A stretch of DNA of 64,000 bases, taken from assembly GCA_963755715.1 (NCBI GenBank), contig CAVWLW010000002.1:1-64000 (forward strand), read 5' to 3'. The DNA is from an uncultured delta proteobacterium (lineage in GTDB: Bacteria; Desulfobacterota; Binatia; UBA9968). Both the position numbers and the translations under genes were made by a program. This document shows, piece by piece, positions 42,218-46,857 of the stretch. The notes beneath the pieces are model-generated. The model worked only from the letters and a program-made list of their open reading frames with translations. It had not been told where the DNA came from and ran no database searches. Position 1 is the first letter of the stretch. Each line of letters starts with the position of its first letter.

Positions 42218-43216
42218 TTACTTTTTCTGCAGCGACTTGAAGAATCCCTGCTTATCCAGCTCGCGCAAGATATCTTCATTGACGAACTCCTGCGCCTTTT
42301 TTCCTTTCGCGTCGGCGCGACTGTTCGCCAGGTCGTCGACGGCGACTTGGACGCCGGACAGTTCGGTATAGGGCGGAAAGGAAATCCGCGGCGCGTAACT
42401 CCGGTAAGCGCTTTCGAGCAGACCTTTGTCCTGCGTGCGCATCCACTTCGACAGGCTCTTTTGTCCGAGCACGGGATCGCTTTTGAAAATATAAATCGCC
42501 TCGCTGATCCCCTGGAGAAAACCGCGCACAACACTGCGCTTGGTGTTTTGCAAGGTCCTGGACGTCAGCAAGCTTACCGTCGCAAACGAATCCTCCAGAT
42601 CGCCAAGGTCGAGCAAGACCGGCATGCCCGCCGCTTTCGCCCGGTCGACGAAAGCGCCGGTAAGCACCGTCGCGTCGATCAGGCCGTTTTGCAGCGCGGT
42701 GAAGCGATCGCGGCTGCCGCCGCTGCGCACCAGCATGATACTTTTCTCGTCGATGCCCCAGTGCCTGAGCGCGGTGGCAACGACGATCTGATTCAATCCG
42801 ATGACGGACAGGACGCCGATCTTTTTGCCGCGCAATTCCTGTGGCGAGCGGATGCCTGGCCGAGCGACGACGCTGTAAGTGTGTTTGTTGAAATAAGTGC
42901 CGATAATGATGATATCGGCGCCGGAAAGATCCGCGGCGATATGCGGCTGCGGCGCGACGACGTCGAACTGTATCTCGCCGCCGGTCAGCGCGTTGGCCGA
43001 TTCCGCGCCACCGCGGAAAAGAATCGGCTCTAGATTCACACCGTATTTCTTGAATAGACCGAGATCGACGCCGAGCCAGAGGGGCACTTGGTAGCCGGAA
43101 ATGCCGCTGTAACCGGCGCGCACTCGCTCCTGTGCATGGGTCGGTGCAGCGCTGTAGAACGCGGCGACTAGCAGCAAACTTGGCAATAGAAATCTAGTAG
43201 TTAGTAATCGACTCAT
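42218..43216 (-). CDS. SsuA/THI5-like substrate-binding protein
   Basis: Signal peptide, GLFKKYG, ELRGKKIG, ALQNGLIDA, LRELDKQGFF. Confidence 0.88.
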   Translation of the reverse strand: MSRLLTTRFLLPSLLLVAAFYSAAPTHAQERVRAGYSGISGYQVPLWLGVDLGLFKKYGVNLEPILFRGGAESANALTGGEIQFDVVAPQPHIAADLSGADIIIIGTYFNKHTYSVVARPGIRSPQELRGKKIGVLSVIGLNQIVVATALRHWGIDEKSIMLVRSGGSRDRFTALQNGLIDATVLTGAFVDRAKAAGMPVLLDLGDLEDSFATVSLLTSRTLQNTKRSVVRGFLQGISEAIYIFKSDPVLGQKSLSKWMRTQDKGLLESAYRSYAPRISFPPYTELSGVQVAVDDLANSRADAKGKKAQEFVNEDILRELDKQGFFKSLQKK

Positions 43217-43250
43217 CTGCGCTCGCGGATCTGAGCCCAATCCCTCCAGC

Positions 43251-44091
43251 TTATTCAGCCAGCGGCCAGCGCAGCCAGTTCGCGAGAGCTCGGCCCATGA
43301 TCCACTCTTTGTCTTGCGCGGAAAGAAAATCCAGCTCTTCGGTGAACAATGTGACGGCTTGACGGTAGCTGCAGGGCATCTGCGACAGGTCGGTGCCCCA
43401 GAAAATTCTTTGCGGACCGAACGCGTCGACAACGCGACGGATCTGCGGATGCAGTGTTGGAAACGGATAGGGCTCGGCGACATAGCAGGGTAGGCAGGAA
43501 GCTTTGACTCCGACATTTTTCATGCGCGCGAAATTGAGCAAGACATCGATGCCGGGCCCTAAGTCTTTGCCCTTCCACTGAACGTTCAGTCCCATGTGGT
43601 CGACGATCACGCGCAGGCCGGGATGGCGCTCCGCGATCGCGCCGATCTTGGCTACCGCGAAAGGCGCGAAGATCATGACCGGGATATCGTAACGCTCGCA
43701 GTCGGCCCAGAACCAATCCGCCGTGCCATCGTCGAGAAACGAGTGCGTGCCGCTGTGGCGAAAGCTGATGCGGAAGCCGAGCATGCCCGGCTGCTGGAGC
43801 CATGACGCGATTCGATCCTTGCTCGCTGGATCGTTGAGCGGCACTTTCCCCATGACCGCGAAGCGGTCGGGATATTTCTGCGCTGCTTCGAGCGCGTAAT
43901 CGTTGCGGTAACCTTCCCATGACGGAGGTACGAGGATCACGCGATCGACGCCGGCGATTTTCATTTCTTCCAACAAACGATCGTAGGTCAGTGGGATCGG
44001 ATCGGTGCGGTTTGGAAGCGTCTTCTTTGATGTAAGGTCGTTCCGCTGTCTCCGGCGGCCAGATGTGGACTTGGGCGTCAATGATGGTCAT
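43251..44091 (-). CDS. Amidohydrolase_2 (LigI/lactonase-like); frameshift near 44005
   Basis: IIDAQVHIW in one frame; VDHMG, K.S, FGPQRIFWGTD in the other. Confidence 0.85.
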
Positions 44092-45760: not shown

Positions 45761-46321
45761 TTACGGCGTCGCTCGCACGGCCGGGCGGTCGAGCAGACGT
45801 TGCATCCAGGCTTTCACGTGCGGCAGATCGCTGCCGATCGTCGTTTGGTAGCGCTGCAAGCGGCAGAAGAACGGGATGTAAGTAATATCCGCTAAAGAAT
45901 ACTCGCCGGCGAGGTATTCCCTCTCGCGCATTTCTTGATTCAAGGTCGTGAGATAACCGCGCACCTTTTCTTTCGACTTCTCCACCTCATGATCGTGAGC
46001 AATATATCCGCCGGCTTGCTGTAAGCGCGTATTGCAGTAATCGATCCAGATGCGCGCTCGCGCCCGTTGCAGAGGGTCGCGTGGCAAGAGCGGAACCTGC
46101 GGATATTTTTCTTCCAGATATTCGTCGATGATCGCCGATTCGTAGATGACGCCGTCGCCATCGACCAGCACCGGCACTTTAGCGTATGGATTCAGTCTCA
46201 GGAGGTCTTCCGGTTTGTTGCTGAGGTCGCACTCGATGAGTTCGTAGGAGAGTTTTTTCTCGGCCAGGACAAGCCTTGTCCTGTGGGCGTAGGGTCAAGG
46301 CTGGTAGGAATAAAGTTTCAT
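45761..46321 (-). CDS. Selenocysteine-containing glutathione S-transferase (omega-like, UPYA motif)
   Basis: RBS AAGGAG, then MKLYSYQP-TGA-PYAHRTRLVLAEK, in frame with NPYAKVPVL..YESAII.EYLEE; TGA at 46295-46297 occupies the CPY catalytic Cys position. Confidence 0.85.
46265..46283 (-). promoter_or_regulatory. Putative bacterial SECIS hairpin
   Basis: CAGGACAA-GGC-UUGUCCUG; loop starts with G about 20 nt after the UGA. Confidence 0.7.
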
Positions 46322-46339
46322 GGCTTGCTCCTTTTCATT

Positions 46340-46714
46340 TTACTTGTCGTTGGCGAAACGTTTGGTGTTAATGACCGCACGTCTATGATTACCGGCGCCG
46401 ATCTTGATCCCCTGGTCGTTAATCGCTGAGACGGAGTAGCGTATTTTGTTGTCCTTGACTTCAGTCAACTCGGCCGTGATTGTAACGCTCTGGCCAATTC
46501 TTGTCGGCGCCAAATGGTAGACGTCCACGTGGATGCCGACAGTTTGCTCGTTTTCATCGAGATGCGGTTCCGTGAGATCGACGCAGGTCCGCTCCATGAG
46601 TCCGATCATCGCCGGTGTCGAGAAGACGTCGTTCTCGAGCTGGCTCGCGCGCATCGCCATAGTCGTGACGTAAGTCGCGGTTCGAGTGAGGCCGGATGCC
46701 AGACTGCTTTTCAT
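46340..46714 (-). CDS. Hotdog-fold thioesterase (fluoroacetyl-CoA thioesterase FlK-like)
   Basis: VFSTPAMIGLME, TVG.HV.V.HLAPT, G.HRRA. Confidence 0.88.
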   Translation of the reverse strand: MKSSLASGLTRTATYVTTMAMRASQLENDVFSTPAMIGLMERTCVDLTEPHLDENEQTVGIHVDVYHLAPTRIGQSVTITAELTEVKDNKIRYSVSAINDQGIKIGAGNHRRAVINTKRFANDK

Positions 46715-46857
46715 GAAAAGAATATACGGGAGAGCGGAGGCCTGGCGCAACTCCGAGCAATGCACGGGGTCTGTTACGTGGGGTCTGGCGCTTGATTTTC
46801 ACCTCTTGCTTCTGCCTTTTGAATTCCTGGCTAGGATTATATTAGCGCCGAGTCAAA

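What the first reader, a model, noticed from the sequence alone, without database searches (positions are those of the whole stretch)
45761..46321. Hidden selenoprotein: GST with UGA at the catalytic Cys and a SECIS-like hairpin
Seen: the ORF track starts this GST at 46177, but the frame continues 48 codons upstream to an ATG with an AAGGAG RBS, reading MKLYSYQP*PYAHRTRLVLAEKK. The only stop is TGA (46295-46297), exactly where omega/Cys-type GSTs have the C of CPYA. An 8-bp stem CAGGACAA/UUGUCCUG with a G-first loop follows about 20 nt downstream. Established: this geometry fits the bacterial SECIS model, and Sec-containing GST-like proteins have been reported from environmental sequences. Inference: a Sec-dependent deglutathionylase or thiol transferase that annotation pipelines would truncate. 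The other apparent errors in this window are indels rather than substitutions.
Basis: partly seen in the sequence, partly recalled or inferred. Interest (0 to 1): 0.85.

Follow-up and report, generated by a model that had tools for sequence, protein, structure and literature searches.

The report
Selenocysteine GST gene, truncated by annotation
This is a real glutathione-transferase gene whose in-frame UGA at the catalytic position is almost certainly read as selenocysteine with the help of a conserved RNA hairpin; the kind has been predicted since 2005, so it is a sound but not surprising find.

Summary
On the minus strand an ATG (46321) with an AAGGAG ribosome site opens a 186-codon GST frame. 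Its only internal stop is TGA at codon 9 (46297-46295). An 8-bp hairpin with loop GGC starts 11 nt after it.

The TGA is not an error. Contigs of 4 runs from 4 studies keep it. In a protein-based search of 40 relatives, 57 of the 58 best hits carry one TGA, in 37 of 40 genomes. It sits at codon 9 in all 40 loci I extracted.

Homologues have Cys at that column in 102 of 128 representatives, as CP[FY]A. The genome has tRNA-Sec, selA, selB and selD.

Codon usage inside the hairpin is frozen: Arg is AGG in 76 of 78 cases against 10 of 226 elsewhere. A Cys homologue encodes the same peptide without a hairpin.

The family (GST-like selenoprotein) was predicted in 2005 and is still uncharacterised. 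This is its soil Binatia branch, truncated in every public protein record I saw. This scan reached the same verdict on another genome.

The thiol-transferase chemistry is inferred, not shown.

The parts
45761..46321 (-). Full coding sequence of the Sec-containing GST-like protein (186 residues plus TAA stop)
   Evidence: Translated with TGA=U. Pfam GST_N_3 7e-21, GST_N 5e-19 and GST_C 6e-12 are all above their cut-offs. The AlphaFold model has pLDDT 96.1.
46328..46333 (-). Shine-Dalgarno AAGGAG, 6 nt upstream of the ATG
   Evidence: Read directly. GGAG-like sites stand at the same place in the orthologue loci.
46319..46321 (-). Start codon ATG
   Evidence: The N-terminus M-[KR]-L-[YFL] is conserved in the orthologues.
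46295..46297 (-). Sec codon UGA (codon 9), motif U-P-Y-A
   Evidence: TGA at this codon in 40 of 40 loci. Kept in contigs of 4 of 4 runs. Aligned to Cys in 102 of 128 representatives.
46263..46288 (-). bSECIS hairpin: lower GCC/GGC, internal CAC, upper stem (C)AGGACAA/TTGTCCT(G), loop GGC
   Evidence: loop of 3 nt starting GG, 7-8 bp stem, 19 nt from the UGA, -11.8 kcal/mol. Codon freezing is shown.
45761..46177 (-). The truncated ORF (GTG start, 138 aa) that ORF finders and public gene calls report
   Evidence: Public homologues are 136-177 aa.
46340..46765 (-). Upstream gene, FlK-type (hot-dog fold) thioesterase, ending 18 nt before the GST start; probable operon partner
   Evidence: Pfam PF22636 4.6e-32. 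A homologue is present in 13 of the 19 other 3.5-kb orthologue loci. RNA-library contigs bridge the junction (records 14 and 18), which does not prove a single transcript.

Best explanation
The region is one intact gene for a cytosolic-type glutathione transferase whose catalytic residue is selenocysteine. The mRNA carries UGA at codon 9. Eleven nucleotides later a 7-8 bp hairpin with a GG-first triloop acts as a bacterial SECIS. By the established bacterial mechanism, SelB with GTP and Sec-tRNA(Sec) binds that hairpin and delivers Sec to the UGA, so translation continues to the TAA at 45761. In the folded protein Sec9 sits at the N-terminal cap of helix alpha-1 of the thioredoxin-like domain, where Cys-type GSTs have the Cys of CP[FY]A. 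The inferred chemistry is that the selenolate attacks glutathionylated or disulfide substrates, forms a selenenyl-sulfide with glutathione, and is regenerated by a second GSH. That would make it a thiol-transferase, deglutathionylase or reductase rather than a conjugating enzyme. Shown here: the gene structure, conservation of the UGA, the Cys/Sec pairing, RNA-level constraint on the hairpin, presence of the Sec machinery, and the GST fold. Inferred: actual Se insertion, SelB binding, and the reaction catalysed.
For: 1. The sequence elements are present.
2. Conservation of the UGA. In a protein-based search of 40 relatives in 3 families of one order, 57 of the 58 best hits (E <= 1.6e-56, identity 88 to 49%) contain exactly one TGA, in 37 of 40 relatives. 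The one exception does not cover the N-terminus. The TGA is at codon 9 in 40 of 40 extracted loci.
3. Not an assembly error. Contigs from 4 of 4 runs (4 studies; 2 DNA and 2 RNA libraries) cover 46295-46297 with no difference there, while showing neighbouring synonymous differences.
4. Cys/Sec pair. Among 150 representatives, 128 cover the column: 102 Cys, 22 Ser, 2 Asp, 1 Asn, 1 Trp. The nearest full-length relatives read CPFAHRTR and CPYALRTR. The best PDB relatives align CPFS to the site.
5. The hairpin meets all four bSECIS criteria quoted. By strict MFE reading 32 of 40 loci pass. In an independent metagenome set 24 of 29 TGA forms pass, against 3 of 31 Cys forms and 0 of 18 Ser forms.
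6. RNA-level selection. Arg codons in the stem are AGG in 76 of 78 cases, against 10 of 226 in other conserved Arg columns. All 5 stem columns have lower codon entropy than all 38 other conserved columns (Mann-Whitney p = 1.7e-4). Nucleotide identity is 0.906 over UGA to +36 and 0.727 over codons 23-70. A Cys homologue (L230) encodes the identical peptide PYAHRTRLVLAEK with other codons and no hairpin. One locus (L039) has a compensatory A-U to G-C change. Two other Sec-GST lineages (L062, L234) have different hairpin sequences at the same offset.
7. Sec machinery. tRNA-Sec scores 76.7 bits and ARAGORN calls it SeC(tca). selB scores 416 bits, selA 617 bits, and selD 213 plus 155 bits with its own in-frame TGA.
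8. Fold. pLDDT is 96.1, with strand 2-5 and then helix 10-21. Foldseek TM is 0.87-0.88 to glutathione-bound GST homologues 4qq7 and 4hoj. P50, E61 and S62 are invariant or nearly so; that these are the GSH-site cis-Pro and Glu-Ser is recalled.
9. gshB is present at 394 bits, above its cut-off.
Against: There is no direct evidence of selenium in the protein, and no raw reads, only contigs. The hairpin's stability taken alone is unremarkable (z = -2.0). Classical covariation is almost absent because the stem hardly varies: one compensatory pair within the clade. Eight of 40 loci fail the strict criteria. Six of these carry a U-U mismatch that widens the predicted loop. One, the genome's own second copy, reaches only -7.2 kcal/mol. 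One folds differently by MFE. Rfam has no matching family. Three of 40 relatives, at 65, 92 and 93% completeness, showed no orthologue. The closest solved relatives are annotated as SspA, a protein that I recall is not a transferase, so enzymatic activity cannot be assumed. The best glutathione-reductase-like hit is below that family's cut-off.
Confidence: 0.88

Rival explanations
1. The UGA is read through or recoded as a standard amino acid (Trp, Cys, Arg or Gly), either by near-cognate tRNA or because the organism uses an alternative code. The hairpin merely slows the ribosome.
For: One public gene call (P0006) writes W at the position. No proteomic evidence distinguishes Sec from other residues.
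Against: Other genes of the genome have no in-frame TGA: selA, selB and the other GST paralogues are listed with no stops inside. That excludes a genome-wide TGA sense code. Homologues have Cys, not Trp or Gly, at the column (102 of 128; Trp 1). The complete Sec machinery is present. The hairpin has the G-first small loop and the spacing of bSECIS elements.
Confidence: 0.05
2. The UGA is a true stop. The functional product is the 138-aa protein from GTG 46177 (or the gene is decaying), and the upstream frame is a relic or a 8-residue leader peptide.
For: This is what ORF finders and all public protein records give.
Against: The 138-aa product would lack strand 1, helix 1 and most of the thioredoxin-like domain. 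Codons 1-48 are conserved as protein down to 49% identity, with an RBS before the ATG, across 40 of 40 loci. Pfam N-terminal GST domains match residues 1-75. A relic would not keep one TGA, and no other stop or indel, in 57 hits.
Confidence: 0.03
3. TGA is a sequencing or assembly substitution error for TGC or TGT in an indel-prone assembly.
For: The assembly does contain at least one apparent frameshift, in selD.
Against: Four independent runs' contigs agree on TGA. The same codon is found in 37 of 40 related genomes, in at least 118 stretches of public genomes, and in 29 metagenome contigs.
Confidence: 0.01

Closest known systems
GST-like selenoprotein family of prokaryotes (Zhang, Fomenko & Gladyshev 2005, Sargasso Sea, PMC1088965; GOS 2008, PMC2398784; reviews PMC9312934 and PMC13188914)
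   Same: It has a GST domain (COG0625 / PF13409) with one in-frame UGA, a downstream hairpin with a small G-containing loop, and widespread Cys homologues. It was predicted by bioinformatics only. I saw passages and tables.
   Different: The published counts are marine: 4 sequences in the Sargasso Sea and 12 in GOS. This branch is from soil, sediment and groundwater Binatia-type MAGs. It is order-wide, is present as two paralogues, and has a nearly invariant SECIS.
Cys-type GSTs: bacterial SspA-like/RegF proteins with CPFS (PDB 6v91, 4qq7, 4hoj) and omega-class GSTO1 (PDB 1eem)
   Same: It has the same fold (TM 0.87-0.88). Sequence E-values are 2e-35 to 1e-33 for the SspA-like proteins and 1e-26 for GSTO1. 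Cys aligns to the Sec in the three printed alignments.
   Different: It has Sec instead of Cys and is shorter (186 aa against 197-241). It is not an SspA by NCBIfam: 115 bits against a cut-off of 314. The residue-level alignment to GSTO1 was not printed, so the match to its catalytic Cys is inferred from the CP[FY]A motif in representatives.
Bacterial SECIS consensus model (bSECISearch; as summarised in PMC13188914, Fig. 2 legend)
   Same: It has a 3-nt loop beginning GG, a 7-8 bp upper stem, 19 nt between UGA and loop, and an MFE of -11.8 kcal/mol. All four constraints are met.
   Different: The sequence is unrelated to any Rfam model. No bulged U is predicted. Binding by this organism's SelB is untested.
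Other selenoproteins predicted in the same genome by this scan (Prx-like UxxC; deiodinase-like) and Sec-containing SelD
   Same: They have in-frame UGA at a redox-active site in a thioredoxin-fold or related protein, in a genome that decodes Sec.
   Different: They belong to different protein families. I did not re-test those two earlier notes.

Membership tests
Bacterial selenoprotein gene (SelB/SECIS-dependent UGA decoding) | In-frame UGA conserved at the same codon in orthologues | tested here: met
   57 of the 58 best hits in 40 relatives carry one TGA. It is at codon 9 in 40 of 40 loci.
Bacterial selenoprotein gene (SelB/SECIS-dependent UGA decoding) | Cys/Sec pair: homologues carry Cys at the aligned position | tested here: met
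   102 of 128 representatives have Cys. 31 metagenome homologues have TGC or TGT. PDB relatives have CPFS.
Bacterial selenoprotein gene (SelB/SECIS-dependent UGA decoding) | [quoted passage not shown] | tested here: met
   The window has GGC, 7-8 bp, 19 nt and -11.8 kcal/mol. 32 of 40 loci pass. In the control set, TGA forms pass in 24 of 29 cases, Cys forms in 3 of 31 and Ser forms in 0 of 18. The criteria are quoted.
Bacterial selenoprotein gene (SelB/SECIS-dependent UGA decoding) | Genome encodes tRNA-Sec, SelA, SelB and SelD | tested here: met
   All are above their curated cut-offs. selD is split by an apparent frameshift.
Bacterial selenoprotein gene (SelB/SECIS-dependent UGA decoding) | Selenium demonstrably incorporated at the UGA | not testable with these tools
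   This needs 75Se labelling or mass spectrometry.
GST superfamily (cytosolic GST fold) | N-terminal thioredoxin-like domain plus C-terminal helical domain | tested here: met
   Pfam GST_N, GST_N_3 and GST_C are above their cut-offs. The model has pLDDT 96.1. TM is 0.87-0.93 to solved GSTs.
GST superfamily (cytosolic GST fold) | Glutathione-site residues (cis-Pro of the V-P motif and the E-S pair; roles recalled) | tested here: met
   P50 and E61 are invariant and S62 is at least 90% conserved in alignment A1. GSH binding itself was not tested.
GST-like selenoprotein family (Zhang et al. 2005) | GST domain with a Sec-UGA and bSECIS, and Cys homologues widespread | tested here: met
   The family is defined in tables seen.
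GST-like selenoprotein family (Zhang et al. 2005) | Sequence relatedness to, and the same Sec position as, the published representatives | not testable with these tools
   The representative accessions are named but could not be fetched. The papers' supplements were closed.
Stringent starvation protein A (SspA) | Score above the NCBIfam equivalog cut-off (314 bits) | tested here: not met
   115.4 bits. It resembles SspA-like structures but is not filed as SspA.
Omega-class GST | Catalytic Cys in C-P-F/Y-A plus the class-specific N-terminal extension (extension recalled) | tested here: inconclusive
   The motif analogue U-P-Y-A is present. E = 1e-26 to 1eem, aligned from chain residue 25. This protein has only 8 residues before the Sec, so it has no extension.

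The most novel reading that the evidence does not exclude
The Binatia branch may be an obligately selenium-dependent pair of GST paralogues. No Cys reversion was seen among 57 TGA-bearing orthologue and paralogue hits. The SECIS has been frozen at the nucleotide level since before the duplication. The gene usually follows a FlK-type thioesterase. That pattern would point to a specific reaction that cysteine cannot support, for example selenenyl-sulfide chemistry on a thioester- or acyl-derived substrate, rather than generic redox housekeeping. A side possibility is that the separate conserved hairpin in the Ser-type S-P-N-C paralogues is a functional or fossil recoding element.
Probability: 0.15. 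Interest if true: 0.5.

Novelty: new member of a known kind. Interest (0 to 1): 0.3.

Why it matters
First, it is an annotation fix with reach. Every close public protein record I saw for this gene is N-terminally truncated to 136-177 aa, or carries W at the site, and so lacks the catalytic residue. At least 118 stretches of public genomes carry the same element.

Second, it shows that soil Binatia, an uncultured lineage, run a Sec-decoding system with at least two GST selenoproteins per genome. I found no paper holding both 'Binatia' and 'selenocysteine' (0 papers). Two papers hold 'Binatota' and a 'seleno' word once each; I saw them in the listing only.

Third, GST-like selenoproteins remain biochemically uncharacterised (review passage). 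A well-conserved, short (186 aa), confidently modelled member with a simple SECIS is a convenient candidate for expression and Sec-versus-Cys enzymology.

Tried and rejected
- Rfam scan of 46150-46400 at E <= 10 gave only two chance-level hits (msr at 16.5 bits, SNORA30 at 11.4 bits) and no SECIS family.
- Single-sequence folding statistics are weak (z = -2.0), so I did not rely on them.
- Classical covariation analysis was not pursued with the count of structure pairs or a covariance model. The stem is almost invariant within the clade: one compensatory pair in L039, plus mismatching ACU and CGG variants. I used codon-usage freezing and Cys/Ser-form controls instead.
- The exact-pattern scan of 301 genomes of the phylum found the pattern in 2. 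These were the own genome and one of the same family. It was not found in the 8 genomes of other orders of the class, nor in the 291 of the rest of the phylum. Because the pattern is exact, diverged SECIS forms would be missed. This shows restriction of this sequence variant only.
- NCBIfam has no specific model for this family. The best hit is SspA, below its cut-off.
- The literature search 'Binat' plus 'selenoprotein' returned only irrelevant papers.
- Depth and gaps in the RNA-library contigs were not used as evidence of expression level.
- Complex prediction, the viral collections and the phage and plasmid collections were not used; they did not bear on the question.
- Supplementary alignments of the 2005 and 2008 papers were closed. 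They may show exactly where Sec lies in the marine GSTs.

Full report
**What is in the sequence**

On the minus strand an ATG at 46321-46319 is preceded by AAGGAG (46333-46328, 6-nt spacer). It lies 18 nt after the stop of the upstream gene. The frame runs 186 codons to TAA at 45763-45761. Eleven nucleotides after the TGA comes CAGGACAA (46283-46276), then loop GGC (46275-46273), then TTGTCCTG (46272-46265). The minimum-energy fold also adds a lower GCC/GGC helix across a 3-nt internal bulge. On its own the fold is only mildly unusual: z = -2.0, with 7 of 200 shuffles as stable.

**The TGA is real**

Logan contigs from four runs of four studies were laid on the stretch: two DNA and two RNA libraries, from soil and mine metagenomes. 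All cover 46295-46297 and none differs there. They do differ at neighbouring synonymous sites, for example 46298 in one RNA-library contig, and 46265 and 46273 within or beside the hairpin. These are contigs, not raw reads. They cannot prove transcription, but two RNA-library contigs span the start codon, the TGA and the hairpin.

**The TGA is conserved**

A protein-based search of 40 related genomes (one order, three families) gave 58 hits at E <= 1.6e-56. Of these, 57 contain exactly one TGA. The remaining hit starts at query residue 15, so it does not cover the site. Thirty-seven of the 40 relatives have at least one such gene. The three without are 65, 92 and 93% complete. I extracted 40 loci, 39 at 88 down to 48% identity plus one outlier near 30% (L062), and found the TGA at codon 9 in all 40. 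The window's own genome has a second copy at C43:138076-138633, 59% identical, with the same TGA and hairpin. Two of the 40 loci (L028, L054) come from a genome flagged unpublished. Nothing here depends on them.

**Cysteine stands at the same column in homologues**

A profile-free HMMER search of 1.84 billion representatives returned 150 best hits, of which 128 cover column 9. They read 102 Cys, 22 Ser, 2 Asp, 1 Asn and 1 Trp. The closest full-length relatives (47-48% identity) read C-P-F-A-H-R-T-R and C-P-Y-A-L-R-T-R. The best solved structures are betaproteobacterial SspA-like or RegF proteins (6v91, 4qq7, 4hoj). They align C-P-F-S to the site. This is the classical Cys/Sec pair signature described in the review passage seen.

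**The hairpin behaves as a SECIS**

The 2026 review gives four constraints in its Fig. 2 legend, read:
- an apical loop of 3-9 nt and an upper stem of 4-16 bp;
- a G in the first two loop positions;
- 16-37 nt between the UGA and the loop;
- an MFE of -7.5 kcal/mol or lower.

The window's element has a GGC loop, 7-8 bp, 19 nt and -11.8 kcal/mol. By a strict reading of the MFE structure, 32 of 40 loci pass. The eight failures break down as follows:
- six are a variant (ACU for ACA) that puts a U-U mismatch under the loop;
- one is the genome's own second copy, at -7.2 kcal/mol;
- one has a competing MFE fold.

**The hairpin is not forced by the protein sequence**

- The two conserved Arg codons inside the stem are AGG in 76 of 78 cases. 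In the other conserved Arg columns of the same genes AGG is 10 of 226.
- Val18 is GTC in 39 of 39 sequences.
- All five multi-codon stem columns have lower codon entropy (0-0.79 bits) than every one of 38 other conserved columns (minimum 0.95; Mann-Whitney p = 1.7e-4).
- Mean pairwise nucleotide identity is 0.906 from the TGA to +36, against 0.727 for codons 23-70.
- In 80 metagenome loci found by protein patterns, the codon at the site is TGA in 29, TGC or TGT in 31 and a Ser codon in 18; 2 loci do not cover it.
- In that set the bSECIS criteria are met by 24 of 29 TGA forms, 3 of 31 Cys forms and 0 of 18 Ser forms.
- One Cys form (L230) encodes the identical peptide P-Y-A-H-R-T-R-L-V-L-A-E-K with different codons and has no hairpin.
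- Within the clade there is one compensatory change, A-U to G-C in L039.
- Two other Sec-GST lineages carry unrelated hairpin sequences at the same offset. L062 has motif U-P-W-C, a 7-bp stem and loop GAU. L234 is 41% identical with loop CGUGCU.

**The organism can decode Sec**

The 7.4-Mb assembly holds a tRNA-Sec: Rfam 76.7 bits against a cut-off of 47, and ARAGORN calls it SeC with anticodon tca. It also holds selB (416 bits), selA (617 bits) and selD, clustered on contig C3. SelD itself has an in-frame TGA in the G-[TGA]-A-A-K-L-G context. It is split by an apparent single-base frameshift in an A-rich run. Other genes (selA, selB, and the other 17 GST-like hits in this genome, whether or not they were printed's list) show no in-frame TGA. 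TGA is therefore not a general sense codon here.

**The protein**

Pfam places GST_N, GST_N_2 or GST_N_3 on residues 1-75 and GST_C on 111-180, all above their cut-offs. An AlphaFold2 model built on a 30-row alignment has mean pLDDT 96.1. It runs strand 2-5, loop 6-9, helix 10-21, so residue 9 caps helix alpha-1 of the thioredoxin-like domain. Foldseek's best matches are glutathione-bound GST homologues 4qq7 and 4hoj and tau-class GSTs, at TM 0.87-0.93. P50, E61 and S62 are invariant or nearly so. I recall these as the cis-Pro and Glu-Ser of the glutathione site. gshB is present above its cut-off. The best glutathione-reductase-like gene is below that family's cut-off. The protein is not an SspA by NCBIfam: 115 bits against 314.

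**Mechanism proposed**

The RNA part is well supported: UGA plus SECIS, then SelB-delivered Sec. The chemistry is inferred by analogy with Cys-type GSTs (omega, lambda, DHAR and Grx2-like; roles recalled). The selenolate at the alpha-1 cap would attack a glutathionylated or disulfide substrate and form a Se-S adduct with glutathione. A second GSH would then release it.

**Context and taxon**

The gene follows a FlK-type hot-dog thioesterase (46340-46765; Pfam 4.6e-32). A homologue lies in 13 of the 19 other 3.5-kb orthologue loci. An NMT1-like binding protein lies downstream.

Their titles are mostly 'Candidatus Binatia bacterium', 'Deltaproteobacteria bacterium' or Syntrophobacter-type MAG labels. 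Two are labelled Verrucomicrobiia, one Alphaproteobacteria and one Chloroflexota. The hits split 59 to 59 between the two paralogue types, and 108 of 118 are open for more than 150 aa after the TGA.

In an even sample of 301 genomes of the phylum the exact pattern occurs in 2: the own genome and one of the same family. It was not found in 8 genomes of other orders of the class or in 291 of the rest of the phylum. An exact pattern misses diverged forms. Runs that hold the stretch are soil, rhizosphere, sediment and mine metagenomes.

**What is known**

'Glutathione S-transferase' is listed among the 15 new selenoprotein families of the Sargasso Sea, with 4 sequences and widespread Cys homologues (tables seen). 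It appears with 12 sequences in GOS (table seen). It is listed as 'GST-like' in the 2022 and 2026 reviews. The 2026 review also states that nearly all such families are known only from bioinformatics (passages seen). So the kind is known.

New here is the soil Binatia branch:
- it is order-wide and duplicated;
- no Cys reversion was seen;
- its SECIS is nearly frozen;
- it is truncated in every close public protein record I saw, at 136-177 aa. One 211-aa record writes W at the site.

No paper in the library holds both 'Binatia' and 'selenocysteine'. Two hold 'Binatota' and a 'seleno' word, once each, seen in the listing only.

An earlier agent of this scan reached the same conclusion for the orthologue in another genome. 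Two earlier notes report other selenoprotein families in this genome. I did not re-test those two.

**Verdict**

This is a genuine Sec-GST gene (confidence about 0.88) and a new member of a known, uncharacterised selenoprotein family. Interest is modest.

Noticed in passing
G000:C43:138076-138633 (locus L044): A second Sec-GST paralogue in the same genome. It is 59% identical, with the same TGA at codon 9 and the same hairpin. Its hairpin alone reaches only -7.2 kcal/mol.
   Followed up: partly
G000:C3:71086-72013 (loci L018, L019): selD carries its own in-frame TGA (G-U-A-A-K-L-G context). It is split into two frames by an apparent single-base indel in an A-rich run. This is either an assembly error or a broken selD.
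   Followed up: partly
L062 (G033:C221:3221-3799): A different GST-like gene, about 30% identical, with TGA in a U-P-W-C (UxxC) motif. It has its own 7-bp hairpin with loop GAU, 13 nt after the TGA. It looks like a separate Sec-GST/Grx2-like lineage.
   Followed up: partly
L234 (metagenome contig, match 601-1188): A third Sec-GST lineage, 41% identical, with motif U-P-Y-A-Q-R-T-R-I. Its hairpin is unrelated in sequence (7 bp, loop CGUGCU, 23 nt from the TGA).
   Followed up: partly
L246, L268, L264, L243, L251, L225 (metagenome loci); compare G000:C43:154242-154832: Ser-type paralogues (motif S-P-N-C-Q-R-V-K) show a strong hairpin of their own (-10 to -18 kcal/mol). It pairs the Cys-Gln codons with the Leu-Ala codons, at about the place where the Sec forms have their SECIS. 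This is unexplained.
   Followed up: no
window 46340-46765 (-): A FlK-type thioesterase lies 18 nt upstream of the GST. A homologue is present in 13 of the 19 other orthologue loci, which suggests a conserved gene pair.
   Followed up: partly
P0006 (public JGI protein, 211 aa): This is the only full-length public record of the family in the top 120 hits. It writes W at the TGA position and adds an upstream extension, so it was probably called under a TGA=Trp code.
   Followed up: partly
L066, L079, L073, L132 (genome contigs): The exact TGA-plus-hairpin pattern also occurs in MAGs labelled Verrucomicrobiia (2), Alphaproteobacteria (1) and Chloroflexota (1). This could be mis-binning, mislabelling or gene transfer.
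   Followed up: no
window 42218-43516 (-) and 43255-44091 (-): Two long minus-strand ORFs overlap by about 260 nt. One is NMT1-like and the other has no Pfam hit. This could be another frameshift in the assembly.
   Followed up: no
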